Part shown: positions 27,702 to 55,563 of the stretch, one piece after another
Layout of the letters: every line of letters starts with the position of its first letter
Position numbering within the stretch: position 1 is the first letter of the stretch
DNA from: a virus
Taxonomy: Duplodnaviria > Heunggongvirae > Uroviricota > Caudoviricetes
Reading direction: 5' to 3' (one strand)
Length of the DNA stretch: 64,000 bases
Virus record (IMG/VR): IMGVR_UViG_3300012156_000175
Position numbers and translations under genes: made by a program
Notes under the pieces: generated by a model
The model's database searches: none
Seen by the model: the letters and a program-made list of their open reading frames with translations, nothing else
Told to the model about the DNA's origin: nothing

Positions 27702-28372
27702 TGGCAAAGAAAAAATATTATGCTGTAAGAAAAGGCAAAGCTACAGGGATATTTGAAAGTTGGGATGAGTGTAAAAACTCTGTTGAAGGATATTCTGGAG
27801 CACAATATAAAGGATTTGCAACTAAAGAAGATGCAGAAGTTTATTTGGAAATCAAGCTGCAACCAAGGGAGATAGTTAAAAAACATGAGGATATCATCAA
27901 GGACAAAAGTAATGATGGTTTAAACGAAGGTACTATTATTGCATATGTAGATGGTAGTTACAATAAAGATAAAAATATATACGGATCAGGAGTTCTTTTG
28001 CTATCAAAAAACATCGAAAAGGAAATCAGCAAAACTGGAAATGATGAAATCATGTTAGAAATGTGGAATGTGGCGGGTGAGGTATGCGCTGCAATGATTG
28101 CTATTGAAGAAGCTATAAAGCTAGGATTTAAAAAGATTATTATTTACCATGATTACACTGGTATAGCAGGTTGGGTGAATGGGTACAGTTCTGATGGGAA
28201 ACCATCAAAAATATGGAAGGCCAAAGAAAAGGGATCTGCCGTATATAAGCAGTTCGCCTCAAAAGCAAAAGAAATCATTAATATCGAATTTGTTAAAGTC
28301 AAAGCCCATTCGGACAATGAGTTCAATAGCAGAGTAGATAAGCTGGCTAAAGAAGCCTGTGGAATAAAATAA
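27701..28372 (+). CDS. rnhA: ribonuclease HI with an N-terminal viroplasmin-like (RNase H1 N-terminal) domain
   Basis: YYAVRKGKATGIFESWDECKNSVEGYSGAQYKGFATKEDAEVYL is followed by the RNase H core YVDGSY…KAHSDNEFNSRVDKLAKEA. Confidence 0.8.
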   Translation: MAKKKYYAVRKGKATGIFESWDECKNSVEGYSGAQYKGFATKEDAEVYLEIKLQPREIVKKHEDIIKDKSNDGLNEGTIIAYVDGSYNKDKNIYGSGVLLLSKNIEKEISKTGNDEIMLEMWNVAGEVCAAMIAIEEAIKLGFKKIIIYHDYTGIAGWVNGYSSDGKPSKIWKAKEKGSAVYKQFASKAKEIINIEFVKVKAHSDNEFNSRVDKLAKEACGIK

Positions 28373-28536
28373 AAAGAGAACTTTGTTTCTCCTTTTTAGA
28401 TTGAAATGAAAAAAATAAGTGTTAAAATATGAAAAAGAATTGTGGTATTACTAAAAATAATCTATTAAGAATAAATTTCAAACATACTAGTAATATTCAC
28501 ACAAAACAGGAGATAAAGAAAGAGAGAAATAACAAT

Positions 28537-29226
28537 ATGAGTGAATTAAAGAAAGAGAAGGATGCCTTTGGTGAAACCACATCTCACCCATCATATGGAA
28601 TGCTATCCTTCAGCCGAAGAACTGGCGGAAAGAACCATTTGTTTGGAAGTAGTATCGAACATAGGGATACAATAGTAATGACTCTGCGTCATGGAGAAAT
28701 GTCCAGAAAATTAAATTCAGACTGGTATTATGGAAATAAAAGGATTGCTGAAGTGGAAATGAGCTATGCACAATTTGCAGAAGCAATTACATCTATGAAT
28801 ATGGGAAGTGGTGTTCCTGTTACTGTTCGTTGGACCGAAAAAGATGGTTCGGTGCCAGAATGTGATTTCATCAACAAAAGAATACAATTTCAGGATGAAT
28901 TCTCGAAACAAATGAATGAAGTGAATCAAAATATGAATAGATTGGTAAAAGAAGTTAGTACCATGTTTTCTGACAAGAAGAACATTAACCAAACAGACAG
29001 GAAAAACATTCTTAGCTCGCTATTACAAATTCAAACAGAAGTATCAAGTAATACCAAGTACGCCTATAAATGCTTTAATGAACAACTGGATAAAACTGTT
29101 ACAGAAGCTAAAGGTGAAATTGAGGCTTTCTGTCAAAATAAAATCAATTCGATTGCACAGAGAGCTTTGGTGGAACATAGTGATGAAGTTAGACTATTAG
29201 AAAATCCTGTAGATATTGATATGTAA
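28537..29226 (+). CDS. hypothetical protein
   Basis: RBS ACAGGAGATAAAGAAAGAGAG precedes the ATG (Met37 of the track ORF). Confidence 0.5.
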   Translation: MSELKKEKDAFGETTSHPSYGMLSFSRRTGGKNHLFGSSIEHRDTIVMTLRHGEMSRKLNSDWYYGNKRIAEVEMSYAQFAEAITSMNMGSGVPVTVRWTEKDGSVPECDFINKRIQFQDEFSKQMNEVNQNMNRLVKEVSTMFSDKKNINQTDRKNILSSLLQIQTEVSSNTKYAYKCFNEQLDKTVTEAKGEIEAFCQNKINSIAQRALVEHSDEVRLLENPVDIDM

Positions 29227-29412
29227 AACCTAAAATGAAATAAAAAGAAGAACCTCGGTTCTTCTTTTTATTTATGGTTTTATCCAATTTTGTATTGCAT
29301 ATGCAGGCAGAAACACTTTCAGCAGAGTTCTGTTTAGTATGCAATTAGAATATTAAATGCAACTAAATTTTGGCATATTACATTTGATAACATTTTAAAG
29401 AAGGAGAAAAAG

Positions 29413-31404
29413 ATGGATAAAAAAGAAAGAATTAATGAACTGGTAGTAGAGTTAAACAAGGCAAATAGAGCTTATTATCAAGAAAGTCGAGAAATCATGA
29501 GCAACTTAGAATATGATAAACTGTATGATGAACTTTTGATGTTAGAGTCAGATACAGGTTATTCTCCAGACAACAGCCCAACAAAGAATGTTGGCTACCA
29601 GATTGTTAGTGCTCTTAATAAGGTTACCCATGAATACCCAGCCCTGTCTCTGGATAAAACGAAAGACCGGAGCGAACTAAAAGAATGGCTCAATCAAAAA
29701 GCTGGTGTCTTGAGTTGGAAATTAGATGGTTTAACTATTCAATTAACTTATGATGATGGAAAACTAACAAGAGCTGTTACCAGAGGAAATGGAGAAGTCG
29801 GTGAAGATGTTACTCACAACGCCGTTTACTTTAAAGGCGTTCCTAAGGAGATTGACTTTAAACAACATTTCGTTTGTCGTGGAGAGGCACTTATCTCTTA
29901 TAAGACGTTTGAAAAAATCAATCAGTTGCTAAAACCGGATGAACAGTACAAAAACCCGAGAAATCTTGCAAGTGGATCTGCAAGACAGTTGGATGCGAAA
30001 GCGGCAGCAGCCCGTGGAATTGAGTTTAAAGCTTTTGAACTTGTCTTGGCAAATGGAAAAGCAATTCCAACTTACGCAGATTCATTTGACTGGATGAAAA
30101 CGCTTGGATTTGATGTTGTAGAGTATGAACGAGTAAATCCAGATAATCTATTGGAAAGGATAGAGTATTTGGAAGAGACTATCGTTACTAATGATTTCCC
30201 GTCTGATGGGCTAGTGTTATCGTATGATGATATTGCTTATGGAAAATCTCTTGGAACAACTGGAAAATTTCCAAAACATTCAATTGCCTTTAAGTGGGCC
30301 GATGGAATACAAGAGACAATATTAACTGATATTGAGTGGAGTGCTTCTAGAACAGGACTCATTAATCCTGTAGCCGTATTTGAGCCGGTTGAACTTGAAG
30401 GAACAACAGTAAGTCGTGCTAGTGTGCACAATGTCAGCATTGTAGAATCCTTGAAATTAGGTGCGGGAGATAATATCACTGTTTATAAAGCTAATATGAT
30501 TATTCCTCAGATTGCTGAAAATATTACCAAAAGCGGAACGGCTGTGATTCCTCAATATTGTCCAGTTTGTGGTAGCAAAACAACAATAAAAGAGACTACA
30601 AACAATGGTCAAACAATTAAAACGTTGTATTGTATTAATCTGGAATGTCAGGCAAAACAGATCAAGAAATTTGCACATTTTGTGGAACGGGACAGAATGA
30701 ATATCTCTGGGCTTAGTGAAGCGACTTTGGAAAAATTAATAGGTGAAGGATTCATTAAGGAATTCAAGGATATTTATCATCTTGATGCTTACAAGGAAAA
30801 AATCGTAAAGATGGAAGGATTTGGAGAAAAATCATATGAGAAACTGGCGAAAGCTATTGACAAAAGCAAGACAGTGAAACTTGAAAATCTTATTGCTGCA
30901 TTAGGTATTGAGAATGTTGGTCGAGATGCCGGCAAGAAAATATCAAAAGCTCTAGGTGGAGATATTGATCGTTTTAATGAGAAGCTAGAAACAGGTTATT
31001 TCCTTGACGTTAAGGACGTTGGCGAATTAAGTAACAATGCAATTAGTGCATGGTATCAAAAGCAAAAGCTTCTAAATAATGAAGGAAAAAGTGAATATTT
31101 TAATTTGCTAAAAGAAATTGAAGTAATTATTCCAAAGAAAAAAGAGACAAGTGAAAAGACGGAAAGTTTACTTGGTGGTAAGAAATTTGTTATTACTGGT
31201 TCTTTGAACTTGTATGCCAGCAGGGCCGAATTAATTGAAAAGATTGAATTTCTTGGAGGAAGTGCTTCAGGCTCTGTCTCTGCAAAAACAGATTACTTAA
31301 TCAACAATGATACAACAAGCAATTCCTCAAAGAACAAAAAGGCAAAAGAAGCTGGTGTATCAATAATCACGGAAGAAGAATTCATGAAACTATTAGAAAG
31401 ATGA
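29413..31404 (+). CDS. ligA: NAD-dependent DNA ligase
   Basis: 663 aa. Adenylation region with KLDG, a 4-Cys Zn finger (CPVCGS…C…C), an HhH region and a C-terminal BRCT domain. Confidence 0.92.
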   Translation: MDKKERINELVVELNKANRAYYQESREIMSNLEYDKLYDELLMLESDTGYSPDNSPTKNVGYQIVSALNKVTHEYPALSLDKTKDRSELKEWLNQKAGVLSWKLDGLTIQLTYDDGKLTRAVTRGNGEVGEDVTHNAVYFKGVPKEIDFKQHFVCRGEALISYKTFEKINQLLKPDEQYKNPRNLASGSARQLDAKAAAARGIEFKAFELVLANGKAIPTYADSFDWMKTLGFDVVEYERVNPDNLLERIEYLEETIVTNDFPSDGLVLSYDDIAYGKSLGTTGKFPKHSIAFKWADGIQETILTDIEWSASRTGLINPVAVFEPVELEGTTVSRASVHNVSIVESLKLGAGDNITVYKANMIIPQIAENITKSGTAVIPQYCPVCGSKTTIKETTNNGQTIKTLYCINLECQAKQIKKFAHFVERDRMNISGLSEATLEKLIGEGFIKEFKDIYHLDAYKEKIVKMEGFGEKSYEKLAKAIDKSKTVKLENLIAALGIENVGRDAGKKISKALGGDIDRFNEKLETGYFLDVKDVGELSNNAISAWYQKQKLLNNEGKSEYFNLLKEIEVIIPKKKETSEKTESLLGGKKFVITGSLNLYASRAELIEKIEFLGGSASGSVSAKTDYLINNDTTSNSSKNKKAKEAGVSIITEEEFMKLLER

Positions 31405-31412
31405 AATAATTA

Positions 31413-31436
31413 AGAGAGCCTTTGGGCTCTTTTTGC
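31413..31436 (+). terminator. rho-independent terminator (AGAGAGCCTTTGGGCTCT)
   Basis: Hairpin plus T-run. Recurrent motif. Confidence 0.55.
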
Positions 31437-31507
31437 AATGAATTTAAAATTATTTTAGTGTGATTTACTACATATTATATTTAACTAATTAGAAAAGGAG
31501 AATCTAT

Positions 31508-32512
31508 ATGAATATCAATGATCAAAGTTATGATAATGAAGAATTTAAGAATGTTAGGAAAATTGTTGGTATTGGAAAAGCAATTATATTAACTTTGTTT
31601 CTGGTGATTACTGTATTCAGTTCATTTTATATGTTAAATGAAAATACAATTGCCGTAATTACAACATTTGGAGTACCATCTGTTGTCGACAAAGCAGGTC
31701 CACATTTTAAAATACCTTATATTCAACAAATTCATCATGTGTCAAAAAACATCGTAGGAATGCCAATTGGCTATAATTCAGATTATGATAACAAAGAAGG
31801 TGCTGATAATGCCAATTTTTCAATTACTTCAGAATCAGAAATGATAACGAAAGATTTTAATTTTGTTGAAGTAGACTTCTATATTGAATATCAGGTTGTT
31901 GACGCAATCAGCTATTTCAAGAATGAAAAAGTAGCTGAAGTAATATTGAAAAATTTAGCACAATCATATATTAGAGACACTGTAGGCGTTTATAATGTGG
32001 ATGATGTCATAACAACAGGTAAGGCTGAAATTCAAGCAAAAGTAAAAGAATTATTATCAAACAGATTAAATGAAGAAAATATTGGGCTTGGAATTTATAA
32101 TGTTACTATTCAAGATGCTCAGCCGCCAACAGATGCAGTAAATAATGCCTTTAAAGCGGTAGAAGATGCTAAGCAAGGAATGGAAACGGCAATGAATGAG
32201 GCAAAAAGATATCAATCGGAGAAAATTCCTGTAGCAAATGCACAAGCAGATAAGATTAAGCAAGATGCTGAAGCATATAAACAAAAAAGAATCAGTGAAG
32301 CAGAAGGTCAGGTCGCAAGGTTCGAATCTATGTATAACGAATACTTAAATTATCCATTAATCACAAAACGAAGAATGTTTTATGAAACAATGGAAACAGT
32401 TTTGCCAGAACTTAAAGTAATTATTGATTCAAGTAATGGTACTCAAAAAATATTACCATTAGATACATTATCAACAACGATGAGTGCAGATAGCAAATTG
32501 GAGGACAATTAA
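31508..32512 (+). CDS. hflK: FtsH modulator HflK (SPFH/band-7)
   Basis: An N-terminal TM segment followed by an SPFH domain, with HflC immediately downstream. Confidence 0.85.
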   Translation: MNINDQSYDNEEFKNVRKIVGIGKAIILTLFLVITVFSSFYMLNENTIAVITTFGVPSVVDKAGPHFKIPYIQQIHHVSKNIVGMPIGYNSDYDNKEGADNANFSITSESEMITKDFNFVEVDFYIEYQVVDAISYFKNEKVAEVILKNLAQSYIRDTVGVYNVDDVITTGKAEIQAKVKELLSNRLNEENIGLGIYNVTIQDAQPPTDAVNNAFKAVEDAKQGMETAMNEAKRYQSEKIPVANAQADKIKQDAEAYKQKRISEAEGQVARFESMYNEYLNYPLITKRRMFYETMETVLPELKVIIDSSNGTQKILPLDTLSTTMSADSKLEDN

Positions 32513-33397
32513 ATGAATAAAATAATAAAGTATGTTAAAGATATCGTCATTAAATCTGTGCTTATACTATTTTTGATTATTATCGCTACAGGTTCTATTG
32601 TTACTACATCAGCGAAAGAATATAAGCTTATTACTCAGTTTGGTGAAGTTGTAAGAATTGAGACAGAGCCTGGTGCATCTTTTAAAATACCATTTATTCA
32701 AGGAACATTAAGTGTTCCTAATTATAAGATGATTGCTGATTTATATCCCAGCAATGTTACTACAAAAGATAAAAAAGTCATGACTGTAGACAGTTTCGTT
32801 ATATGGCGAATTTCTGATCCAGTTAAATATCTTTCATCATTAAATGCAAGTTTAGAAAATGCTGAAAATCGTTTAGAAAATGTTGTGTATAACTCTGTAA
32901 AGACTGTATTATCAAGAACAGATCAGGAAGAAATCATTTCGGGCAGAGATGGTTTAATTGCAACAACTATTACAGAAAATATTGGTAATGCCATGGAGTC
33001 TTATGGGATAGAAATTCTTAGCGTGGAAACGAAAAAATTAGATCTGCCAGACTCCAATAAAGAAGCCGTTTATCAGCGAATGATTTCTGAAAGAAATAAT
33101 ATTGCAGCAGGCTATACAGCAAATGGCCAATATGAATCAAATTTAATAAAAAATGAGACAGATAGAAATGTAACGGAGACAATTGCAAAAGCAGAGGCAG
33201 AAGCTGAAGAAATTAAGGCAGCAGGTGAAGCTGAATATATGAGAGTTCTTAGTAATGCATATAATGATGAGTCAAAGGCAGACTTCTATAACTATGTTCG
33301 GTCCTTAGACGCACTAAAGTCCTCATTAAAAGGGAAAAATAAAACTGTCATATTAGATGAAAACAGTGAACTTTCAAAAATTTTGTCAGGAAATTAA
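32513..33397 (+). CDS. hflC: FtsH modulator HflC (SPFH/band-7)
   Basis: SPFH domain and a coiled-coil C-terminus. The ATG lies one base after the hflK stop. Confidence 0.85.
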   Translation: MNKIIKYVKDIVIKSVLILFLIIIATGSIVTTSAKEYKLITQFGEVVRIETEPGASFKIPFIQGTLSVPNYKMIADLYPSNVTTKDKKVMTVDSFVIWRISDPVKYLSSLNASLENAENRLENVVYNSVKTVLSRTDQEEIISGRDGLIATTITENIGNAMESYGIEILSVETKKLDLPDSNKEAVYQRMISERNNIAAGYTANGQYESNLIKNETDRNVTETIAKAEAEAEEIKAAGEAEYMRVLSNAYNDESKADFYNYVRSLDALKSSLKGKNKTVILDENSELSKILSGN

Positions 33398-33482: not shown

Positions 33483-34580
33483 ATGATAAATTTCAAAATA
33501 GAACAGGACGATATCACTACTTATAATGTAGATGCAATCGTCAATGCGGCTTATTCGACTTTGTTGGGCGGAGGTGGAGTGGATGGAGCAATCCATAGAA
33601 AAGCCGATCCAGAATTATTAGAAGAATGTAGAACGTTGAATGGTTGTAAAATAGGTGAAGCTAAAATTACTAAGGGATATAATTTGACTGCGAAGCACAT
33701 TATTCATACCGTGGGTCCTAATATAACAGGGATTTATGGTCCTACAGAAGATGAAGTGAAAGATTTATACAATAGAAGGGAACTAACGGTAGGGTATTGT
33801 AAAAAGAGAGCCATGGAAACAGACGAATATAATCTTAAAATAGAAGAATTAAGGAAATTTATTCAAAATGCAAATAATATTGTATTTATGGGCGGAGCCG
33901 GAGTATCTACCGAGTCAGGGATTCCGGACTTTAGAGGAGAAGCTGGACTATATATAAAAGAACATGATTATAAGTATAGCCCACGTAAAATGCTGTCAAA
34001 AGGATTTTTCTATACTCATAAAAAAGAGTTCTATGATTTTTATAGATCATTGATACCTAAATTTGAAATCAAACCCAATAATGCACATGTAGCATTAGCT
34101 AAATTAGAAAAGATAAAACATCTAACAATTATTACTCAAAATATTGATGGACTACATGAAAAAGCAGGCAGCAGAGAAATTATCAATTTACATGGAACAG
34201 CAGTGAAAAATCACTGTCAGCTTTGTCGAACAAGATATACTCAAAACGAAATGAATCAATTACTTAAAGAATCAAATGGAGGTATCCCAAGATGTAAAAA
34301 ATGCCAAATAGGAACTGTTCGTCCTGATACTATATTATACGACGAGATGATATCACCAAAGTTACTAATTAATGCAAAGAAAGCTATTAAACATGCTGAT
34401 CTGGTGATTGTAGGTGGAACAACAATGTTGGTTAATCCAACAAAGACTTTACTCAAAAAATATAAAGGAAAAATAGTTATTATTAATAAAGGCGAAACAT
34501 CTTTAGATGGTAGAGCTGATATACTATTTAATAACGAAATTGGAACAGTGCTAGATGATGCAATATCTAATTTAGAATAA
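33483..34580 (+). CDS. Macro domain - Sir2 (sirtuin) fusion protein, NAD-dependent deacylase / ADP-ribose processing
   Basis: The N-terminal macro domain has [23 protein letters not shown]. The Sir2 core has [15 protein letters not shown], a QNIDGLHE motif and a Zn ribbon CQLC…CKKC. Confidence 0.75.
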
Positions 34581-35313: not shown

Positions 35314-35747
35314 TGATAAAGCAATATATTGTTATAAGAAAAGACCTACCGATGTCTCCAGGAAAATTAGCAGCTCAAACATCTCATGCAAGTTTAGCTT
35401 TTTTAACCAATATGATGGCTTCAAATATCAAACGGATTGATGATACATATGAATGTAATATTTCTATTGATAAATATCTGTGGGAAAATTGGATGAGTCC
35501 GGATGCTAGTTTCACAAAAGTAACCTTAGGGATTAAAAACAGAGACAAAATGATAAAGCTTATTGAAAAAGCAAAAAGCTTTGGTTTTGAAGAAGGTAAG
35601 GATTTCTTTTGTATTCATGATGCCGCAAAGACAGAGCTATCTGATTTTATAGAAGAAGATGGGTCTGTTCTTACCTGTGTAGGCTTTAAGCCTAGAGAAG
35701 AATCTGAATTAAGAGAATTACTAAAGCGATTGCAATTATTTAAATAG
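35313..35747 (+). CDS. peptidyl-tRNA hydrolase PTH2-family protein
   Basis: YIVIRKDLPMSPGKLAAQTSHAS matches the PTH2 core (VVR.DL.M..GK.AAQ..HA). Confidence 0.6.
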   Translation: MIKQYIVIRKDLPMSPGKLAAQTSHASLAFLTNMMASNIKRIDDTYECNISIDKYLWENWMSPDASFTKVTLGIKNRDKMIKLIEKAKSFGFEEGKDFFCIHDAAKTELSDFIEEDGSVLTCVGFKPREESELRELLKRLQLFK

Positions 35748-35793
35748 CCATAAAATTAAGGAGAAAAGGAAAATATGTATATATGAAAATCAT

Positions 35794-35979
35794 TTGGGTG
35801 GCATATATGCGTCAGACACAGAATTAGATTATGAATGCTTGTATTGCGAACAGTGTGGTGATGTAGATTGGTTAATTGGCCAGGCTAATACAAAAGAAGA
35901 TACTAATATAGATAGTTCTGGTGGTCGGGATTATGATTATATCCAAGGATTTTTAAAGGAGAGTTTTGATGAGTTGTAA
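35794..35979 (+). CDS. small Cys-containing ORF (doubtful; the strong upstream RBS at 35762 leads only to a 3-codon ORF)
   Basis: TTG start without an RBS. Possibly a broken gene. Confidence 0.15.
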   Translation: MGGIYASDTELDYECLYCEQCGDVDWLIGQANTKEDTNIDSSGGRDYDYIQGFLKESFDEL

Positions 35980-36018
35980 ATAGTAGGGAGTCAAAGTCAG
36001 GCAAAAATAATGAAATAA

Positions 36019-36044
36019 AAAAGAGGACATAGTCCTCTTTTTTA
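36019..36044. terminator. bidirectional terminator (AAGAGGACATAGTCCTCTT)
   Basis: Hairpin flanked by A-run and T-run. Confidence 0.55.
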
Positions 36045-36102
36045 AATATCATTCCTTTTCACTTATTTAAACAGCTTTCATAGATGTTGTATTCTGTTTG
36101 TC

Positions 36103-36330
36103 TTAGTCAACTTTTATAATTGCATTATCAATATTCTTCTCCAGTCTATTTATTTCTCTATTCAGTACTTCTGCAATATCAGTGCATAAATGACGAATAG
36201 GTTGGTTTAAGTCTGCAGCGGTCTCTAATTCCTTTTTTGTCTTATCAACTTTTTCCAGAGAATCTGTTTTATATCCCAGGAAATATTCTTGTAGCCTTAT
36301 CATGTCATCGTAGTTGCTTTGCAGATTCAT
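36103..36330 (-). CDS. small protein (75 aa), last gene of the helicase-led small-gene array
   Basis: AAAGGAG RBS. The conserved upstream junction begins TAAATTATTTTTTAAAGGAG. Confidence 0.45.
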   Translation of the reverse strand: MNLQSNYDDMIRLQEYFLGYKTDSLEKVDKTKKELETAADLNQPIRHLCTDIAEVLNREINRLEKNIDNAIIKVD

Positions 36331-36384
36331 GATTTGATCTTTTACTTCTTTTACTGTTATTTATTTTCTCCTTTAAAAAATAAT

Positions 36385-36630
36385 TTATTTGCCTGTAATC
36401 TTGTCTAAACACTCATTCCAATCGTCTGAATATCCTACAGGTCCAGTAGATGCTACCCATTGTTTCTCTGGCAGCTCTCGAAGTGGACAGTTTTCAAGTT
36501 TAGAAAATCGATTATCTATTTTTGCATTCTTATATGATAGCATTCGACATCTACATTTGGGTTCATAATCAATAAACCTGCACAATTCGCAACAACTTGG
36601 TGTTTCAACAATTAACACGGATTTACCCAT
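36385..36630 (-). CDS. small Cys-rich protein (81 aa)
   Basis: CCELCRF…CRCR cluster. Junction TAAATTAATTTTCAAGAAAGGAAAAG precedes the ATG. Confidence 0.45.
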   Translation of the reverse strand: MGKSVLIVETPSCCELCRFIDYEPKCRCRMLSYKNAKIDNRFSKLENCPLRELPEKQWVASTGPVGYSDDWNECLDKITGK

Positions 36631-36654
36631 ATAACACTTTTCCTTTCTTGAAAA

Positions 36655-37059
36655 TTAATTTAATAGGTCTCGTATTTCTTCCGACAATTCGGTCTCTCTG
36701 CCATACAGATTTTCAATTTCTTCTGCTGCCTCTTCCAATAGTTTGCTTAACTTTGCAATCTTTTCTGCTATTGCCTTTTCGTTTTTCAACCAACAACCAG
36801 TGCACACATTCTTCTCTAAGTTCAATTTCAGGTGTGAAATTTCTAATTCTTTATTTTCATATCTACGATTCCATATTTTTATTGCTTGGTATACAGCTTC
36901 ATAACCGTCATATTCTGATTTGTTTTCATGGAGAGCGTATTGACATCCAATAAGTTTAATTTGTATCCCAACATGACAATTTGGGCAGCTGACTTGATCA
37001 CCATTATAAATCCCTTTTACTGCTTCACTTCCACAGAATGGACAAGGCTTTATTTCCAT
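36655..37059 (-). CDS. Lar-family restriction-alleviation protein homologue with a C-terminal coiled coil
   Basis: The N-terminal MEIKPCPFCGSEAV…CPNCH matches the Lar family KPCPFCG zinc-ribbon signature. Confidence 0.55.
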   Translation of the reverse strand: MEIKPCPFCGSEAVKGIYNGDQVSCPNCHVGIQIKLIGCQYALHENKSEYDGYEAVYQAIKIWNRRYENKELEISHLKLNLEKNVCTGCWLKNEKAIAEKIAKLSKLLEEAAEEIENLYGRETELSEEIRDLLN

Positions 37060-37103
37060 TATTCTCCTATTTCCTTTCTCGGCTTTTGCCGTTAAAAATT
37101 AAT

Positions 37104-37373
37104 TTAATAAACAAACTGACATTCTGTAAATTCCTCGTCCACAATGATATTGAAATCATCATCATCATAGTAACTGTCATTTTTAGTTACCAACATTTCA
37201 ACATACAACTCACCAGAAATTCCTTTCTCTTTTAAAGCATTCAGGATACTGCTCTTGAAGTTATTTTTCAACATAAGTTCAGACAACTCCACTCCTGACT
37301 CTTCGATTGTGAAAAGTATGTTATTACTGGAAACATCACATATGATACATTCGATTTTAAATTCTCTTTCCAT
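37104..37373 (-). CDS. small highly acidic protein (89 aa)
   Basis: A YYDDDDFNIIVDEEFTE acidic tract. Junction TAAATTAATTTTCAAGAAAAGGAGAAAC precedes the ATG. Confidence 0.45.
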   Translation of the reverse strand: MEREFKIECIICDVSSNNILFTIEESGVELSELMLKNNFKSSILNALKEKGISGELYVEMLVTKNDSYYDDDDFNIIVDEEFTECQFVY

Positions 37374-37398
37374 GTTTCTCCTTTTCTTGAAAATTAAT

Positions 37399-37626
37399 TT
37401 AACTAATTCCGATAGAGCTTACAAACAACTCGATTATTCCATTTTCAACCCATGCTACAGTGACCGAATATACATCATAACCAGGGCTATCAAACATTTC
37501 GTCAACTGATACTTTACAGTTGTCTATACCATTATTACTCATAAATTCCTCGATTTCTTGTTGACATTCCACGTTGCAATCTTCATCGAAATTATCAATA
37601 AGCTCTTCTAATTTTTCTTTTAACAT
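37399..37626 (-). CDS. small highly acidic protein (75 aa)
   Basis: Asp/Glu-rich with several Cys. AAGAGGAG RBS. First gene after the helicase. Confidence 0.45.
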   Translation of the reverse strand: MLKEKLEELIDNFDEDCNVECQQEIEEFMSNNGIDNCKVSVDEMFDSPGYDVYSVTVAWVENGIIELFVSSIGIS

Positions 37627-37650
37627 CCTTCTATTCTCCTCTTTTAAATT

Positions 37651-39639
37651 CTAAGTCACATGATTAATATGTGATTTGAATGATAAGGATAATTTTAAAA
37701 AGTTTTTTTGAACATATTTAGTTGGCATTTCATCAATAAATCGGCTATGCTTCATTCGTTGGTACTTGCCATTTACCATGCGAGATGCTGCAGAAGTAAT
37801 AGATAATGATTCGATTGCTCTAGTAATCCCGACATAACATAATCTGCGTTCTTCTTCAAGTTCTTTACCAATTAAAGACATAGAAGAAGGAAAAACACTA
37901 TCTTCGAGGCCAACCATATAAACTTTTTTAAATTCCAATCCTTTAGATGAATGCAGAGTCATCAGAGTAATCTTTTCAGCTTTCGTATCTTTATCAGTTG
38001 TTGAAACTAATGCAATGTTTTCTAATAATTTATCAAGCTTAAATGTACTATCTTCATTTTCAAATTCAATAACTTTATTTAACAATTCATCAATATTCTC
38101 TTTCTTACTTGTAAATATCTCTGGCTCTGTAGATTTTTCTAACTCATCTAAATAGCCCATATCAGATATAATATGGTTTAAGTATTCATGAATAGAATAA
38201 GAACCATCACCAGATATATCTAATACACCACTTTTGGCTAATCGATATTTCAACGATTCTATTGTATCAGTGAATTCAGCAATAGTAGCAGCAGTCTTTT
38301 TAGAAACAGATGGTATTGTAGAGACTTTTAATAAAGCCTCATAAAAAGTTAGTTTATTGTCTTTCGCATGTTTTTCGATTTTCGTAACTGTTGTTTGACC
38401 GATTCCTCGGCGTGGTACATTTAAAATACGTTTTACAGATAGAAAATCAGAAGAATTGGAAATTATCTTTAGATAAGCAATTAAATCCTTTATTTCCTTT
38501 CTTTGATAAAAGTTAAGTCCACCTATTATCCTGTATGGAATATTATAACGAATGCACGATTCCTCAAAAAGTCGAGATTGGGCATTGGTTCGATATAAAA
38601 TTGCAATGTCTGAATAAGAATAGGTTCCACTGTAGATATCTCGAATTACGGAATCGGCTTCATTATTAGATGTTTCAAATTCTGTATAGACCACCTTTGG
38701 CCCTGTGGTCTTATTTGTCCTTAACGTTTTTTCTGCTCTGGTAGTATTGTTTTTGATAACGGCATTGGCAGTATTTAAAATATTAGAAGTTGAACGATAG
38801 TTTTCTTCCAGTTTAATAATCTTAGCTTCAGGATATATGTCCTGAAAACCTAAGATGTTGTTAATATCTGCACCTCTAAAACTGTATATTGACTGATCAT
38901 CATCTCCAACTACAAATAAATTTTTATGTACTTCGGCAAGAAGAGAAACTAACTGAAATTGCATATTATTCGTATCCTGATATTCATCCACCATTATATA
39001 ATGAAAATCATTCTGATATTGCTCTAATGCTTCAGGATAATCAGTGAACAGTATATATGTTTTTAATAATAAATCATCAAAATCCATTGCATTGTTTTCA
39101 AATAGCAAATCTTCATATTCTTCGTAACATTTTTTCATCTTTTCTTCGGTTGAATTAGTTGAAAAATAGTTTTCAGGTGAAACACCTTTACTTTTCAACC
39201 CAGATATAAAACTCAATGTAAGCTTTGGATCGAGATGTCTATCATACGATAAATCTTTTATTATCTTCCGAATCAAAGCTTTCGAATCATCAGAATCATA
39301 AATTGTAAAATTATTTCCATAACCCAATAAATAAGCATGTTTACGCAAAATTTTAGCACACATTGAGTGAAAAGTCATTACCCACATAGATTCAGAAGCA
39401 GGGCCAATAAGTGATTGTATTCGAGATTTCATTTCATTGGCGGCTTTATTGGTAAATGTTATAGCAAGAATACTAGCCGGATTTATTTTCTTAGAATCTA
39501 TTAAATAAGCGGCTCTATATGTTAACACTCGGGTTTTTCCAGAGCCGGCTCCCGCAAATACCAAAACCGGACCATCAAGAGAAAATACAGCACTGACTTG
39601 TTCTGGGTTCATGGTTTCTAAGATATCAATTATTTTCAT
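37651..39639 (-). CDS. ATP-dependent DNA helicase, UvrD/PcrA/Rep (SF1A) family
   Basis: Motif I AGAGSGKT, a TFHS motif, motif II VDEYQDTN, and LYRTN/QSR motifs. 662 aa. It leads the small-gene array on the same strand. Confidence 0.85.
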   Translation of the reverse strand: MKIIDILETMNPEQVSAVFSLDGPVLVFAGAGSGKTRVLTYRAAYLIDSKKINPASILAITFTNKAANEMKSRIQSLIGPASESMWVMTFHSMCAKILRKHAYLLGYGNNFTIYDSDDSKALIRKIIKDLSYDRHLDPKLTLSFISGLKSKGVSPENYFSTNSTEEKMKKCYEEYEDLLFENNAMDFDDLLLKTYILFTDYPEALEQYQNDFHYIMVDEYQDTNNMQFQLVSLLAEVHKNLFVVGDDDQSIYSFRGADINNILGFQDIYPEAKIIKLEENYRSTSNILNTANAVIKNNTTRAEKTLRTNKTTGPKVVYTEFETSNNEADSVIRDIYSGTYSYSDIAILYRTNAQSRLFEESCIRYNIPYRIIGGLNFYQRKEIKDLIAYLKIISNSSDFLSVKRILNVPRRGIGQTTVTKIEKHAKDNKLTFYEALLKVSTIPSVSKKTAATIAEFTDTIESLKYRLAKSGVLDISGDGSYSIHEYLNHIISDMGYLDELEKSTEPEIFTSKKENIDELLNKVIEFENEDSTFKLDKLLENIALVSTTDKDTKAEKITLMTLHSSKGLEFKKVYMVGLEDSVFPSSMSLIGKELEEERRLCYVGITRAIESLSITSAASRMVNGKYQRMKHSRFIDEMPTKYVQKNFLKLSLSFKSHINHVT

Positions 39640-39728
39640 TTCATACCTCCAAAATATAGTTTTTAATAGTATGATTTATTATGCTTCTTTTTTATAAATA
39701 CTACATTATAGGAAGGAGGTGAAAGATA

Positions 39729-41072
39729 ATGAAAAGGATAATAATTATAATGATATTGTGTTTTTGTTTCACTTATGTTTTGGGAATTATTTATTATAAG
39801 GATAAATTTCTTCCCAATACATATATAAATAAAATTGATGTTTCAAATTTGGCAGAGGAAGATGCCGTAAAAATAATCGAAGATAATACAAAAAACTCAT
39901 ACACTTTGACAATTCAAGAACTTGATAATAAAGAGGAAATAATTAAAGGGAATGAAATTGAGTTAAATGCTTATGCTGATATAAAAAGCCTGATTGCTCA
40001 GCAAGATAATATACTATGGATAATATCATTTTTTAAATCAAATAATTATAATCTTGTCCCTAAAGTTGACTTTAATGAAGAATTATTAATAAAAAAAATC
40101 GAGTCACTAGGCTGCATAAAATATGGGAAAAATCCTATGAATGCGTATATATCGGAATATATAAAAGATAAGGGTTATGAAATTATTAAAGAAGATAATG
40201 GGTCATTAGTAAATAAAGATAGTCTGATAGGAAAAGTTCAAGAAAAAATAAGAAATCTAGAAGGGACATTAGATTTAGAAAATGAGGACTGTTATGAAAG
40301 AGTAACAGTAACATCAAATGATAGTTCACTAATCGAAGTAGTAGAACAACTTAATTCACTATTAGCAACTAAAATTATATATATATTTGGCAATGACAGT
40401 ATAGTGCTAGATGCAAACACTTATTATCTGTGGATCGTTGATTCGGAAGACGGATTATCAATTAATAAAGATGAAGTTTTAAACTATGTTGATACCCTGG
40501 CGAATCAAACCGATACAGTATATACTACCAGAATTTTTGTAACAACATCCGGAGAATCTGTAAATGTTCAGGGTCCATATGGGTATCAAATAAATAAAGC
40601 TGCTGAAGTAGAACAAATAATTATAGACATAGAATCAAGGACAGAGGTTACAAGAGAGCCAATATACAAGTCAAAAGGAGATTCAAGACATGGTTACGAC
40701 TATGGAAACACTTACGTGGAAGTTAATTTAACAAACCAAATGGTTTATTTATATGTCGATGGACAGCTTATCAAAACTTCAAAATGCGTAACAGGCAATG
40801 TTTCAAAAGGTCATACTACACCGGCAGGAATATTTCCATTAACGTATAAACAAAAAGATAAAGTCCTTAGAGGACCTGATTATGCATCGCCAGTTAAGTT
40901 CTGGATGCCTTTTAATGGTGGGATTGGTTTACATGATGCTTCTTGGCGGAATACATTTGGCGGAACAATTTATAAAACAAATGGATCACACGGCTGTGTT
41001 AATTTACCATATGATATGGCGAAAACCCTATATGAGTCAGTCTATTCAGGAATGCCTGTCATATGTTATTAG
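39729..41072 (+). CDS. L,D-transpeptidase (YkuD) family protein with an N-terminal membrane anchor
   Basis: C-terminal catalytic motif HGCVNLPYD. N-terminal TM segment. 447 aa. Confidence 0.7.
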   Translation: MKRIIIIMILCFCFTYVLGIIYYKDKFLPNTYINKIDVSNLAEEDAVKIIEDNTKNSYTLTIQELDNKEEIIKGNEIELNAYADIKSLIAQQDNILWIISFFKSNNYNLVPKVDFNEELLIKKIESLGCIKYGKNPMNAYISEYIKDKGYEIIKEDNGSLVNKDSLIGKVQEKIRNLEGTLDLENEDCYERVTVTSNDSSLIEVVEQLNSLLATKIIYIFGNDSIVLDANTYYLWIVDSEDGLSINKDEVLNYVDTLANQTDTVYTTRIFVTTSGESVNVQGPYGYQINKAAEVEQIIIDIESRTEVTREPIYKSKGDSRHGYDYGNTYVEVNLTNQMVYLYVDGQLIKTSKCVTGNVSKGHTTPAGIFPLTYKQKDKVLRGPDYASPVKFWMPFNGGIGLHDASWRNTFGGTIYKTNGSHGCVNLPYDMAKTLYESVYSGMPVICY

Positions 41073-47748: not shown

Positions 47749-47752
47749 TTAT

Positions 47753-55561: not shown

Positions 55562-55563
55562 CT

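What the first reader, a model, noticed from the sequence alone, without database searches (positions are those of the whole stretch)
36103..39639. Helicase-led array of five small acidic/Cys-rich genes with near-identical inter-cistronic junctions; candidate anti-restriction / anti-defence cassette array
On the minus strand a UvrD/PcrA-family helicase (37651..39639) is followed without a terminator by five short genes of 75, 89, 134, 81 and 75 aa. One is a Lar-family restriction-alleviation homologue (KPCPFCG). Two are extremely acidic, which is compatible with DNA-mimic proteins. One is Cys-rich. The five proteins are unrelated to each other. All four internal junctions nevertheless begin with the same string on the coding strand, TAA-ATTAATTTT(C/T)AAGAAAGGAG…ATG. 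This is visible on the plus strand as CTTGAAAATTAATTTAA at 36640, 37088 and 37385, and as AAAAATAATTTA at 36360. One junction also carries a small CGGCAAAAGCCG hairpin insertion. The helicase-first junction is a looser version of the same string. Conserved linkers between non-homologous ORFs suggest modular cassette exchange by recombination at the linker, or a shared translational-coupling or processing element. This architecture is typical of phage or plasmid counter-defence loci and is not a described system as a unit.
Basis: partly seen in the sequence, partly recalled or inferred. Interest (0 to 1): 0.7.

Follow-up and report, generated by a model that had tools for sequence, protein, structure and literature searches.

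The report
Shuffled small-gene array behind a helicase
Five small accessory genes have been inserted behind a conserved helicase gene of a very large, unclassified mobile-looking element; they are joined by near-identical short "stop codon + ribosome-binding" linkers, single genes have been swapped between related elements at or next to those linkers, and this is a compact version of phage-type gene shuffling, not a new defence-evasion system.

Summary
A truncated PcrA-like helicase (37651-39639, minus strand) is followed by five unrelated small genes under one promoter-like site and one terminator. Three junctions share the 12-mer TAAATTAATTTT, which occurs nowhere else in the 64 kb. Two junctions share 20 identical bases, the top outlier among 2,926 pairs of upstream regions.

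- The helicase does not lead a system. It is a syntenic core gene in elements related at 56-75% helicase identity, and all of them lack the five genes.
- The array fills a variable slot, and its genes have separate histories. A 389-nt block (g75a tail, junction, g89, junction with hairpin) is 92% identical in a sister element whose core proteins are only 46-58% identical. There it sits in another slot and precedes a different gene.
- Four of five mapped breakpoints fall at junction edges or ORF ends.
- The stop context TAA+ATTAA is absent from 72 other window genes but found at 6 of 12 genes in the sister array.

Each junction reads as stop codon, unstructured AU-rich spacer and extended Shine-Dalgarno sequence. 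It probably also supplies microhomology for exchange, like a minimal PeSL.

Anti-restriction rests only on one borderline Lar-like zinc ribbon. DNA mimicry is unsupported.

The parts
39640..39700 (-). Promoter-like region and 5' leader of the operon. It holds a -10-like CATACTAT at 39666-39673 and the Shine-Dalgarno sequence GGAGG at 39646-39650.
   Evidence: Read. The same ACATAMTAT-type motif recurs about 30 nt upstream of other genes in the window (families D6, D8, D12, D20). Function is inferred.
37651..39639 (-). PcrA/UvrD-like SF1 helicase, 662 aa, lacking the PcrA C-terminal domain. It is a conserved core gene of the element family. Its last 11-15 residues (LKLSLSFKSHINHVT) are unique to this copy.
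   Evidence: Pfam UvrD-helicase 2e-93 and UvrD_C 5e-71. TIGR01073 pcrA scores 750 bits, below the 911-bit cut-off, over profile positions 2-638 of 725. Relatives at 56-75% identity keep the synteny. Nucleotide homology to relatives stops at about 37698-37704. C-terminal tails are compared.
37627..37650 (-). J1, the helicase-to-g75a junction (TAG AATTTAAAAGAGGAGAATAGAAGG ATG). It is a loose version of the linker.
   Evidence: It is unstructured as RNA.
37399..37626 (-). g75a, 75 aa, pI 4.05. A small two-helix, three-strand protein of unknown function.
37374..37401 (-). J2 linker including the g75a stop codon: TAAATTAATTTTCAAGAAAAGGAGAAAC.
   Evidence: The same leader precedes the g89 homologues in L040/L041 and L170.
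37104..37373 (-). g89, 89 aa, pI 4.05, function unknown. It is the clearest mobile module in the array.
   Evidence: 90-91% amino-acid identity in L040/L041 and L170-L174, in different neighbourhoods. dN/dS 0.11 against the L170 copy. No Pfam, PHROG, NCBIfam, PADLOC or PDB match.
37060..37106 (-). J3 linker including the g89 stop codon: TAAATTAATTTTT, then the 4-bp hairpin CGGCAAAAGCCG (37080-37091), then AGAAAGGAAATAGGAG.
   Evidence: The junction is conserved with its hairpin in L170 (CGGCATAGCCG), where it precedes an unrelated 153-aa gene. The fold is not better than shuffled sequence.
36655..37059 (-). g134, 134 aa. Residues 1-66 form a Lar-like zinc ribbon. The C-terminal helical segment 'AEEIENLYGRETELSEEIRDLLN' is shared with small proteins of ~35-40 kb phage contigs.
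   Evidence: PF14354 E 6.9e-9, 36.3 bits against a 28.6 cut-off. phrog_599 2.4e-9. TIGR03655 26.9 bits against a 39.6 cut-off. C-terminal matches of 65-82% identity in L003-L027.
36631..36662 (-). J4 linker: TAAATTAATTTTCAAGAAAGGAAAAGTGTTAT. The stop codon in use is the second TAA, so the string overlaps the last two codons of g134.
   Evidence: It shares 20 identical bases with J2.
36385..36630 (-). g81, 81 aa, a Cys-rich protein that probably binds zinc. It belongs to a widespread family of ~80-95 aa proteins of unknown function.
   Evidence: 90 cluster representatives at E <= 1e-3. Invariant P11, C14, C17, C28, C48, C74. AF2 model pLDDT 88, with no PDB fold match. A Lar-like CPxCG gene lies within 1.4 kb upstream in 8 of 9 loci fetched from elsewhere (many closely related), directly upstream in L017 and L165; in the window g134 is directly upstream too.
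36331..36387 (-). J5 linker including the g81 stop codon, a degenerate copy: TAAATTATTTTTTAAAGGAGAAAATAA ATA... The Shine-Dalgarno sequence is spaced for an in-frame ATA codon, 30 nt before the annotated ATG.
36103..36330 (-). g75b, 75 aa, predicted helical or coiled-coil. No homologue was found with the searches that could be spent on it.
   Evidence: It forms a singleton 90% cluster.
36016..36044 (-). Intrinsic terminator closing the operon: a 13-bp stem followed by a T-run.
   Evidence: It is the only terminator-like site on the minus strand in 35700-39900.
35750..37700 (.). The element-specific insert in the variable slot between the helicase and the PTH2 gene. It holds the five small genes plus a 61-aa ORF on the plus strand (35794-35979).
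   Evidence: blastn against L029-L032: homology ends at about 37698-37704 and resumes at about 35747-35753. The slot contents differ in every relative examined.

Best explanation
The five small genes are a mosaic accessory array of the phage 'moron' or ORFan kind. They sit in a variable slot directly behind a conserved PcrA-like helicase gene of a very large (at least 152 kb) low-GC element.

Expression (inferred). The array has no promoter or terminator of its own. It is read as a 3' extension of the helicase mRNA, from the promoter-like site near 39666-39673 to the terminator at 36016-36044.

What each junction is. Each is a compact, unstructured translation-initiation cassette with three parts:
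- a TAA stop codon, often doubled in a second frame (TAAATTAA);
- an AU-rich spacer;
- an extended Shine-Dalgarno sequence (AGAAAGGAG), complementary to the Firmicute 16S 3' end (the rRNA 3'-end sequence is from my own knowledge; no rRNA gene was examined).
Each ORF is therefore translated independently from the polycistronic RNA.

How the junctions relate to exchange. The junction sequences are homologous copies, not convergent ones. They travel with the genes, and the same 'TAA-ATTAA...SD' style marks small-gene arrays in sister elements. Because unrelated ORFs are flanked by 13-20 nt direct repeats of this linker, the linkers are the likely places where single genes are gained, lost and swapped between co-resident elements by short-homology recombination. 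This works like a minimal, promoter-less version of the PeSL cassettes of T4-type phages.

What the proteins do is not established. The most likely role is early host-interaction or counter-defence functions of the element. One protein (g134) may alleviate restriction through its Lar-like zinc ribbon.

Shown: the repeat and its non-randomness, accessory status, horizontal exchange of g89 and g75a modules with breakpoints at junction or ORF edges, purifying selection on g75a and g89, and the absence of internal terminators and of RNA structure.

Inferred: co-transcription, the translational role, recombination at the linker as the mechanism, and any anti-defence role.
For: Non-random repeat:
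- All three exact copies of the 12-mer lie at junctions.
- The 22-mer matches twice against 0.02 expected.
- The J2/J4 identity of 20 nt is the top outlier among 2,926 pairs.
- The stop context is absent from 72 other window genes.

Accessory status:
- Relatives L029, L030, L031 and L032-34 keep the order YkuD, helicase, PTH2, HSP20; L029, the only locus that reaches that far, also keeps LigA and RNase H.
- Their slot after the helicase is empty or holds other genes.
- Nucleotide homology breaks at 37698-37704 and 35747-35753.
- The helicase C-terminal tail is unique to this copy.

Exchange with breakpoints at linkers:
- L040/L041 share J2 plus g89 at about 96% nucleotide identity. The homology starts at the upstream gene's stop codon and ends at the g89 stop codon.
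- L170-L174 share window 37458-37070 (g75a tail, J2, g89, J3 with hairpin) at 92%. That is the only detectable nucleotide similarity between these loci and the window.
- In those sister elements LigA and the Band_7 proteins are only 46-58% identical to the window's, the block sits in a different slot, and it precedes an unrelated 153-aa gene.
- The g75a block in L038 spans exactly the ORF, start to stop.

Shared junction style: 6 of 12 stop contexts in the L170 array are TAA+A[TG]T[TAG]A, against 0 of 72 in the window outside the operon (Fisher p = 2e-6).

Real genes: dN/dS is 0.11 for g89 and 0.14 for g75a. g81 has 90 family clusters with invariant Cys residues.

Operon logic:
- There is a single terminator, and promoter-like sites are no more frequent than in shuffles.
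- The junction RNAs are unstructured, with z-scores from -0.8 to +1.8.

Translational analogy: the 25-bp T7 gene-10 linker TTAACTTTAAGAAGGAGATATACAT is used between unrelated genes in synthetic polycistrons (PMC9462701). It aligns with J2 and J4 over TTAA-TTT-AAG-AAGGAG.

Precedent for linker-mediated shuffling: PeSLs (PMC2839356) and the boundary-sequence model (PMC3233612).
Against: - Only three independent comparisons define breakpoints. One of the five breakpoints lies inside an ORF: the left end of the L170 block falls in the 3' part of g75a.
- Breakpoints at gene edges are also what selection after random illegitimate recombination would leave (PMC3233612).
- The linkers offer only 13-20 nt of identity, and no recombinase was identified next to the array.
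- The right half of the shared string is simply the extended Shine-Dalgarno sequence, so part of the similarity is functionally forced.
- The exact 19-mer and the J3 string are not repeated in any contig of IMG/VR or the JGI metagenome set. There are 123 single, unrelated hits, and only one is followed by GGAGG. The evidence therefore comes from one family of elements in one set of samples.
- Co-transcription and translation were not measured.
- Weak -10-like TAAATT hexamers, with a TTGTAA or TTTACA hexamer 17-18 nt upstream at J2 and J3, cannot be excluded as internal promoters (and sequence reading).
Confidence: 0.6

Rival explanations
1. The helicase and the five small genes form one dedicated anti-restriction or anti-defence operon. 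In this reading the small proteins include DNA mimics and a Lar-type restriction alleviator, and they work together with the helicase.
For: - g134 has a Lar_restr_allev domain above Pfam's threshold and matches a PHROG annotated 'Lar-like restriction alleviation protein'.
- g75a and g89 are the two most acidic small ORFs in the window.
- Relatives of the small genes sit in long arrays of small co-oriented genes, an arrangement that, from my own knowledge, is typical of phage early regions.
- The window carries other conflict-related genes, namely a Sir2-macro fusion, NAD-salvage enzymes and a JetD-like gene.
Against: - The helicase is conserved with its synteny in relatives that lack all five genes, so there is no functional coupling.
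- The genes have separate evolutionary histories.
- The Lar hit fails NCBIfam's cut-off. From my own knowledge, restriction alleviation has been shown only for the E. coli Rac-prophage Lar.
- The g75a fold matches no Ocr-, ArdA- or other mimic-type structure.
- No profile, PDB or PADLOC hit exists for g75a, g89, g81 or g75b.
- 6 of 36 small ORFs have pI below 4.5.
Confidence: 0.2
2. The junction similarity is purely a translational signal with no role in recombination. Selection for an optimal unstructured leader (strong stop, AU-rich enhancer, extended Shine-Dalgarno sequence) keeps the junctions alike, or made them alike. The gene-edge breakpoints are simply what selection leaves after random illegitimate recombination.
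For: - The right half of the string is the extended Shine-Dalgarno sequence AGAAAGGAG.
- The junction RNAs are unstructured.
- The string resembles the T7 gene-10 enhancer-plus-RBS linker (PMC9462701).
- Other small-gene arrays show the looser theme TAA, AT-rich stretch, GAAAGGAG.
- One breakpoint lies inside g75a, not at a linker.
- The illegitimate-recombination model is well established for phages (PMC3233612).
Against: - If this were the optimal leader, it should appear at other genes of the element. It appears at 0 of 72.
- The other upstream regions share at most 15 nt.
- J2 and J3 are inherited by descent together with g89 in L040 and L170, so they are homologous copies, not convergent ones.
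- J3 carries the same hairpin insertion in two elements.
Confidence: 0.25
3. The junctions are weak internal promoters or RNA-processing sites, which would make them true PeSL-like regulatory cassettes. TAAATT would serve as a -10 element, and the J3 hairpin as an attenuator or stabiliser. Each small gene would then have its own transcript or a processed mRNA.
For: - At J3, TTTACA-18-TAAATT is listed as promoter-like at 9 of 12 matches.
- At J2, TTGTAA-17-TAAATT is present (read).
- PeSLs likewise run from the upstream stop codon to the downstream Shine-Dalgarno sequence.
Against: - Promoter-like sites in the region are no more frequent than in shuffles (23 against 22.4).
- J4 has no acceptable -35 hexamer.
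- The -35 positions lie in unrelated coding sequence.
- The junctions are 24-54 nt long, against about 100 nt for PeSLs.
- The hairpin has only 4 bp and no T-run, and its fold is no better than shuffled sequence.
Confidence: 0.1

Closest known systems
PeSL (promoter-early stem-loop) cassettes in the hyperplastic regions of T4-type phages (Arbiol et al. 2010, PMC2839356; Comeau et al. 2014, PMC4122927)
   Same: - Both are conserved intergenic motifs running from the stop codon of one ORFan, through an AT-rich stretch, to the Shine-Dalgarno sequence and start codon of the next, unrelated ORFan.
- Both are concentrated in variable regions between core genes.
- In both, genes that differ between related genomes are flanked by the motifs.
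- Recombination between flanking copies is proposed to excise and insert single genes.
   Different: - PeSLs span about 100 bp and carry a strong sigma-70 promoter and a stem-loop terminator, both tested experimentally.
- The junctions here are 24-54 nt, with no demonstrable promoter or terminator, and the genes depend on read-through from the helicase promoter.
- The host and element types differ: a low-GC, Clostridia-like giant element here, T4-like coliphages there.
- Mini-circles and recombination at the linker have not been shown here.
Short conserved boundary sequences in lambdoid and other mosaic phages, together with phage 'morons' (the two models are summarised in PMC3233612)
   Same: - Module boundaries coincide with gene boundaries.
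- Single small genes with independent histories are inserted between conserved genes.
- Closely similar modules occur in otherwise distant genomes.
   Different: - Classical morons carry their own promoter and terminator; these genes do not.
- The linker here is repeated in tandem around several consecutive genes. It is not found singly at a module border.
Lar/Ral-type restriction alleviation proteins (Pfam PF14354, NCBIfam TIGR03655). Lambda Ral modulates type IA R-M (PMC12707154). That the family founder Lar comes from the E. coli Rac prophage is my own knowledge, not read from that paper.
   Same: g134 residues 1-66 match the Lar zinc-ribbon profile, including KPCPFCG and a second Cys pair. 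Like Lar, it is a small protein encoded on a mobile element.
   Different: - It falls below the NCBIfam cut-off.
- It is twice the length of Lar, with an unrelated C-terminal helical module shared with other phage proteins.
- Its host background is different.
- No activity has been tested.
Synthetic polycistronic linkers derived from the T7 gene-10 leader: TTAACTTTAAGAAGGAGATATACAT (PMC9462701)
   Same: It is a ~25-nt unit with a U-rich 'enhancer' next to AAGGAG, placed between unrelated ORFs so that each is translated from one mRNA. The layout and part of the sequence are the same (TTAAyTTT..AAG..AAGGAG).
   Different: This is a resemblance, not homology. The enhancer's function has been tested in E. 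coli (my own knowledge), not in Firmicutes.
Integron gene-cassette arrays
   Same: Both are promoter-less, unrelated small ORFs in one orientation, expressed from an upstream promoter and separated by repeated sites at which cassettes are exchanged.
   Different: - No integrase was found in the Pfam-scanned ORFs from 18.9 to 52.4 kb that flank the array.
- There is no attC-like imperfect inverted repeat of 57-141 nt (length range from my own knowledge).
- The repeats here are 13-20 nt direct repeats that overlap the stop codon and the RBS.

Membership tests
Lar family restriction alleviation protein (g134) | Match to Pfam PF14354 at or above the gathering score | tested here: met
   36.3 bits against a 28.6 cut-off, E 6.9e-9, residues 2-66. 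phrog_599 'Lar-like' matches at 2.4e-9.
Lar family restriction alleviation protein (g134) | Match to NCBIfam TIGR03655 (anti_R_Lar) at or above its curated cut-off | tested here: not met
   26.9 bits against a 39.6 cut-off.
Lar family restriction alleviation protein (g134) | N-terminal CPxCG zinc ribbon with a second Cys pair | tested here: met
   The sequence reads MEIKPCPFCGSEAVKGIYNGDQVSCPNCH.
Lar family restriction alleviation protein (g134) | Alleviates type I restriction or enhances modification in vivo | not testable with these tools
   This needs expression in a restriction-proficient host.
DNA-mimic anti-restriction proteins (Ocr/ArdA type) (g75a, g89) | Sequence or profile similarity to a known mimic family | tested here: not met
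   No Pfam, PHROG, NCBIfam or PADLOC hit. PDB sequence searches return only noise or nothing.
DNA-mimic anti-restriction proteins (Ocr/ArdA type) (g75a, g89) | Fold resembling a known DNA mimic | tested here: not met
DNA-mimic anti-restriction proteins (Ocr/ArdA type) (g75a, g89) | Strong net negative charge | tested here: met
   pI 4.05 and net charge -15 and -13. This is not specific, because 6 of 36 small ORFs here have pI below 4.5.
PeSL-type mobile regulatory cassette | Sigma-70 promoter (-35 and -10) inside the cassette | tested here: not met
   The junctions are 24-54 nt. Promoter-like sites are no more frequent than in shuffles, and J4 has no -35 hexamer (sequence reading).
PeSL-type mobile regulatory cassette | Stable stem-loop acting as terminator or attenuator | tested here: not met
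   Only J3 has a hairpin, and it is 4 bp. No junction folds better than shuffled sequence, and no terminator is predicted between the genes.
PeSL-type mobile regulatory cassette | Repeated motif spanning upstream stop codon, AT-rich stretch, Shine-Dalgarno sequence and start codon, located between ORFans in variable regions | tested here: met
PeSL-type mobile regulatory cassette | Genes that differ between related genomes are flanked by the motif, and exchange breakpoints fall in it | tested here: met
   The g89 module is bounded by J2 and J3 in three contexts, and four of five breakpoints lie at junction or ORF edges. The sample is small.
Integron cassette array | Adjacent tyrosine-recombinase integrase and attC recombination sites | tested here: not met
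   No integrase domain appears in the ORFs scanned with Pfam between 18.9 and 52.4 kb, on both sides of the array; ORFs elsewhere in the window were scanned only in part. The junctions lack attC-like inverted repeats.
PcrA (essential chromosomal replication/repair helicase) | Equivalog-level match to TIGR01073, including the C-terminal domain | tested here: not met
   750 bits against a 911 cut-off, over profile positions 2-638 of 725. The precomputed domain lists give PF21196 for the 740-810 aa bacterial PcrA hits but not for this ~650-aa clade.
Gabija GajB / defence-system UvrD helicase | Partner nuclease (GajA) or another defence component adjacent | tested here: not met
   PADLOC GajB and RTasHel profiles match, as they do any UvrD helicase. 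No neighbouring gene hits a defence model. The neighbours are YkuD, PTH2 and HSP20.

The most novel reading that the evidence does not exclude
The TAA-ATTAA...SD linkers could be the recognition or crossover sites of a dedicated gene-capture mechanism in a family of giant low-GC elements. This would be an integron-like, promoter-less cassette system in which single small counter-defence genes are excised as circles and re-inserted at any linker. Translation signals and recombination sites would be fused in one ~25-nt unit. The palindromic core AAATTAATTT and the concentration of the motif in the arrays of two distantly related elements would then reflect a site-specific activity, as opposed to passive microhomology.
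Probability: 0.1. Interest if true: 0.65.

Novelty: new variant of a known kind. Interest (0 to 1): 0.35.

Why it matters
There are two models for why mosaic boundaries in phage-like genomes sit at gene borders. One is recombination targeted to conserved boundary sequences. The other is random illegitimate recombination followed by selection. Clear cases of the first are few; PeSLs in T4-type phages are the best known.

- unrelated genes separated by 13-20 nt direct repeats that double as translation-start cassettes;
- a 389-nt module caught at 92% identity in an element whose core genes are only about 50% identical.

If the linkers do direct exchange, they would explain how very large elements of gut or anaerobe Firmicutes trade single small genes, probably host-interaction or counter-defence genes, without needing promoters or integrases. 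The motif could then be used to find such accessory arrays. If they do not, this is ordinary phage-type mosaicism with a well-tuned ribosome-binding linker.

Tried and rejected
- The junction string as a widespread mobile element. The exact 19-mer gave 4 IMG/VR hits and at least 119 JGI metagenome hits. All are single copies in unrelated contexts, and only 1 of 123 is followed by GGAGG. A J2-type 21-mer hit only the leader of a Rha-like phage gene. The J3 string had no IMG/VR hit. Rejected.
- Close relatives in annotated phage or plasmid records. Only 65-72% nucleotide hits to the helicase were found. The Monoglobus '517-kb plasmid' hit is an unrelated region of housekeeping genes. tblastn of the helicase and of g81 against phages gave at most 50% and 36% identity.
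- IMG/VR relatives of the helicase, g81, g89 and g75a: none.
- The search for related loci with the g81 family alignments failed because there was no conserved 7-10 column stretch.
- Structured RNA at the junctions: no fold better than shuffles.
- Fold of g81: no PDB match.
- Fold of g75a: no informative match.
- Ancient paralogy among the five proteins: none.
- A defence-system reading of the helicase (GajB- or DRT-like): profile hits are generic and no partner gene is present.
- The origin of the samples could not be traced in the paper library.

Full report
**1. What is there**

On the minus strand, a 662-aa UvrD/PcrA-type helicase (37651-39639) is followed by five ORFs:
- g75a, 75 aa, 37399-37626
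- g89, 89 aa, 37104-37373
- g134, 134 aa, 36655-37059
- g81, 81 aa, 36385-36630
- g75b, 75 aa, 36103-36330

Upstream of the helicase lie a -10-like CATACTAT and a GGAGG Shine-Dalgarno sequence. The same ACATAMTAT-type motif precedes other genes in the window. The only terminator-like site on this strand is a 13-bp stem with a T-run at 36016-36044, after the last small gene. Promoter-like hexamer pairs are no more frequent than in shuffled sequence, 23 against 22.4. The simplest reading is therefore one six-gene transcription unit. This is inferred, not measured.

**2. The junction repeat is real**

Read on the coding strand:
- J2 = TAA ATTAATTTTCAAGAAAAGGAGAAAC ATG
- J3 = TAA ATTAATTTTT-AA-CGGCAAAAGCCG-AGAAAGGAAATAGGAGAATA ATG
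- J4 = TTAAAT TAA TTTTCAAGAAAGGAAAAGTGTTAT ATG. Here the second TAA is the stop codon, so the string overlaps the end of g134.
- J5 = TAA ATTATTTTTTAAAGGAGAAAAT...
- J1 = TAG AATTTAAAAGAGGAGAATAGAAGG ATG, only loosely similar.

Four tests show the repeat is not chance:
- The exact 12-mer TAAATTAATTTT occurs three times in 64 kb, always at these junctions.
- The 22-mer with up to 3 mismatches is found twice, against 0.02 expected.
- I compared the 40 nt upstream of 77 predicted genes in all 2,926 pairs. J2 against J4 is the single outlier at 20 identical bases, and the next pair shares 15.
- None of the 72 predicted genes outside the operon has a stop codon followed by A[TG]T[TAG]A.

The five proteins show no significant similarity to each other.

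**3. What the junction is made of**

- The right half (AAGAAAGGAG) is an extended Shine-Dalgarno sequence. It is complementary to the 3' end of Firmicute 16S rRNA; this is established knowledge, not tested here.
- The left half is a TAA stop, often with a second TAA in another frame, plus a U-rich spacer.
- None of the junction RNAs folds better than shuffled controls, with z-scores from -0.8 to +1.8. The J3 hairpin has only 4 bp.
- The layout and part of the sequence resemble the 25-bp T7 gene-10 'enhancer + RBS' linker TTAACTTTAAGAAGGAGATATACAT, which is placed between unrelated genes in synthetic polycistrons (PMC9462701; alignment).

So each junction looks like a self-contained, unstructured translation-start cassette.

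**4. The array is a passenger, not part of a helicase system**

- The window is part of a 152.7-kb metagenome contig.
- The helicase belongs to a clade of ~650-aa PcrA-like proteins without the PcrA C-terminal domain. TIGR01073 scores 750 bits against a 911-bit cut-off (domain lists).
- Its closest relatives (75, 63, 62 and 56% identity; contigs up to 525 kb) keep the neighbourhood: L,D-transpeptidase (YkuD) upstream of the helicase, PTH2 and HSP20 downstream. In L029, where the locus reaches further, LigA and RNase H follow.
- What follows the helicase differs in each relative: nothing (L029), a 153-aa gene on the other strand (L030), DUF4262 plus a 57-aa gene (L031), or a 453/529-aa gene (L032-34).
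- Nucleotide homology to these relatives stops at window 37698-37704, about 50 nt before the helicase stop codon. It resumes at 35747-35753, the end of the PTH2 gene.
- The last 11-15 residues of this helicase are unique to it.

The five genes are therefore an element-specific insert in a variable slot. PADLOC GajB and DRT helicase profiles match only as they would any UvrD helicase, and no partner gene is present.

**5. The genes have separate histories, and the breakpoints sit at the junctions**

g89 in L040/L041:
- Its homologue is 90% identical in protein and about 96% in DNA.
- It sits behind a different gene. The DNA homology begins at that gene's stop codon (TAATTGATTTTCAAGAAAAGGAGAGAC ATG) and ends at the g89 stop codon.

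g89 in L170-L174:
- These contigs of 50-89 kb come from the same series of assemblies.
- g89 lies in a different slot, inside an 8.4-kb array of small genes between LigA and two SPFH genes. In the window those genes are adjacent.
- The only detectable nucleotide similarity between these loci and the window is window 37458-37070, at 92% identity over 389 nt. It comprises the last ~60 nt of g75a (a non-coding remnant in L170), J2, g89 and J3 with its hairpin (CGGCATAGCCG there).
- After this block comes an unrelated 153-aa gene in place of g134.
- Core proteins of the two elements are only 46% (LigA) and 51-58% (SPFH) identical. The block has therefore moved recently between distant members of the family.

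Other modules:
- The homology block of the g75a relative in L038 (85% nucleotide identity) spans exactly the ORF from start to stop. The same 3.6-kb contig also carries two g81-family genes in a different order.
- dN/dS is 0.11 for g89 (window against L170) and 0.14 for g75a, so these are real protein-coding genes.

Of the five mapped block ends, four lie at a junction edge or ORF end and one lies inside g75a.

**6. The junction style is shared by sister arrays**

In the L170 array, 6 of 12 stop codons are followed by ATTAA or ATTGA, and two junctions carry the same kind of CGGC...GCCG mini-hairpin. The figure is 0 of 72 in the window outside the operon (Fisher p = 2e-6). Other small-gene arrays that hold g75a relatives show only the looser theme TAA, AT-rich stretch, GAAAGGAG.

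The exact strings are not repeated elements in IMG/VR or the JGI metagenome set. The motif therefore marks the accessory arrays of this element family and is not a general mobile element.

**7. What the proteins might do**

- **g134.** It has an N-terminal Lar-type zinc ribbon: PF14354 at 36.3 bits against a 28.6 cut-off, phrog_599 at 2e-9, but TIGR03655 at 26.9 bits against a 39.6 cut-off. Its C-terminal helical segment (…AEEIENLYGRETELSEEIRDLLN) is 65-82% identical to the ends of small proteins in many ~35-40 kb phage contigs.
- **g81.** It belongs to a large family of 80-95-aa proteins, with 90 cluster representatives. P11 and five Cys residues are invariant. The model is confident (pLDDT 88) but matches no solved fold. 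In 8 of 9 loci fetched from elsewhere that carry a family member, a CPxCG zinc-ribbon gene (Lar-like by its motif; only the L165 copies have a Pfam Lar hit) lies within 1.4 kb upstream. It is directly upstream in L017 and L165, and in the window g134 directly precedes g81. Many of these loci are closely related to each other.
- **g89 and g75b.** Neither has any profile hit; g89 also has no match among solved-structure sequences, a search not run for g75b.
- **Acidity.** g75a and g89 are the most acidic small ORFs in the window, but acidity is common there.

The anti-restriction idea therefore has one weak lead, the Lar-like domain, and DNA mimicry has none. Lambda Ral's action on type IA R-M systems is summarised in PMC12707154. 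That the family founder Lar comes from the E. coli Rac prophage is my own knowledge. No activity can be inferred for this distant, fused homologue.

**8. Best explanation and comparison with known systems**

The locus is a mosaic accessory array hitch-hiking on the helicase transcript. Each gene is preceded by a homologous ~25-nt linker of stop codon, AU-rich spacer and extended Shine-Dalgarno sequence. The linker provides independent translation and, very probably, the short homology at which single genes are exchanged between co-resident elements.

The closest described system is the PeSL of T4-type phages. PeSLs are conserved motifs running from the upstream stop codon through an AT-rich stretch to the downstream Shine-Dalgarno sequence. 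They flank ORFans in hyperplastic regions and mediate shuffling through mini-circles (PMC2839356). The present linkers share the position and the association with differential genes. They fail the two defining regulatory features, a sigma-70 promoter and a stem-loop terminator, and they are a quarter of the length.

The locus also fits the 'conserved boundary sequence' model of phage mosaicism. Its alternative, random illegitimate recombination followed by selection (PMC3233612), cannot be excluded with three comparisons. The locus is not an integron: no integrase was found in the scanned flanks and there is no attC.

**9. Verdict**

I rate it a new variant of a known kind, a minimal and promoter-less linker-bounded ORFan array, and give it moderate-to-low interest (0.35). 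The comparative evidence of a recently exchanged 389-nt module bounded by the linkers is clean. The sample is small, the mechanism is inferred, and the proposed counter-defence function is essentially untested.

The nature of the host element may be the more interesting open question. It is at least 152 kb, with relatives of at least 525 kb. Within the window it carries 14 tRNA genes and genes for SecA, LigA, RNase J and a ClpP-like protease (its relatives also carry a class A PBP next to YkuD). No clear virion or conjugation module was seen in this window.

Noticed in passing
window 1-64000; relatives L029-L034 (one scaffold of 525,091 bp): The window belongs to a family of very large low-GC (~32%) elements of unresolved nature. 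They carry many housekeeping-like genes: SecA, NAD-dependent ligase, RNase H, RNase J, MgsA/RarA, a ClpP-like protease, LytR-CpsA-Psr, YkuD, PTH2, HSP20 and two SPFH genes (the relatives L030-L034 also carry a class A PBP next to YkuD). They also carry many large ORFs with no Pfam hit. No virion or conjugation module was recognised in the window apart from a truncated VirD4/TraG-like ORF at 1472-2512. A relative of the helicase is annotated in a Lacrimispora amygdalina assembly (P0003).
   Followed up: partly
window 54470-55635, 12951-13024, 22770-22843: There are fourteen tRNA genes. Twelve form one array at 54470-55635: Asp, Asn, Arg, Ala, Val, Pro, Ile, Phe, Gly, Met, Arg and His.
   Followed up: no
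window 23034-23783 (-): An orphan JetD-like gene of 249 aa matches the C-terminal two-thirds of PADLOC JetD3 at 4e-62, and Pfam JetD_C. None of the ORFs scanned with Pfam in the flanking region (21831-33397) is JetA-, JetB- or JetC-like; ORFs elsewhere in the window were not all scanned.
   Followed up: no
window 33483-34580 (+), 47735-48235, 48384-48902, 50137-51594: A macro-Sir2 fusion protein lies near a nucleoside 2-deoxyribosyltransferase-like gene, an isochorismatase (nicotinamidase-like) gene and a nicotinate phosphoribosyltransferase. Together these look like an NAD-turnover and salvage set, of the kind linked to defence and counter-defence.
   Followed up: no
window 36331-36387 (-): At J5 the Shine-Dalgarno sequence AAAGGAG lies 7 nt before an in-frame ATA that directly follows a TAA. 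The annotated ATG of g75b is 30 nt further on and has no Shine-Dalgarno sequence. Either the original ATG mutated to ATA, initiation is non-canonical, or g75b is poorly translated.
   Followed up: no
window 37651-37704 (-): The helicase carries a unique C-terminal tail (…KNF-LKLSLSFKSHINHVT). It begins where nucleotide homology to all relatives ends. The left edge of the insert therefore lies inside the last codons of the helicase gene and has rewritten its C-terminus.
   Followed up: yes
L040 1212-1481 / L041 961-1230: This copy of g89 differs from the window copy by 9 non-synonymous changes and 1 synonymous change. The acidic run DDDD has become DGDG. This suggests relaxed or diversifying selection, but the counts are small. 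The ORF upstream of it appears frameshifted.
   Followed up: partly
window 36655-36750 (-); L003-L027: The C-terminal 30-60 residues of g134 (…AEEIENLYGRETELSEEIRDLLN) form a separate module. It is found at 65-82% identity at the ends of otherwise different small proteins in 25 IMG/VR phage contigs, most of them 20-45 kb (some are short fragments). This points to domain-level shuffling.
   Followed up: partly
L165 49-829; L017, L020-L024, L026; window 36385-37059: Genes of the Cys-rich g81 family repeatedly lie just downstream of Lar-like zinc-ribbon genes. This may be a functional pair, but the independent instances are few.
   Followed up: partly
L170 1376-9839: In a sister element, the LigA-to-SPFH interval is about 100 nt in the window but holds an 8.4-kb array of 18 genes. 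The array includes a Wzy_C-like membrane protein and an SSB, and several of its junctions carry CGGC…GCCG mini-hairpins. It is a second variable slot in the family.
   Followed up: partly
window 58657-59988 (+): A 443-aa HNH-endonuclease-like ORF (phrog_119, 3e-58) lies in a locally GC-richer stretch (0.40), next to an unannotated 442-aa ORF. It may be a selfish insertion.
   Followed up: no
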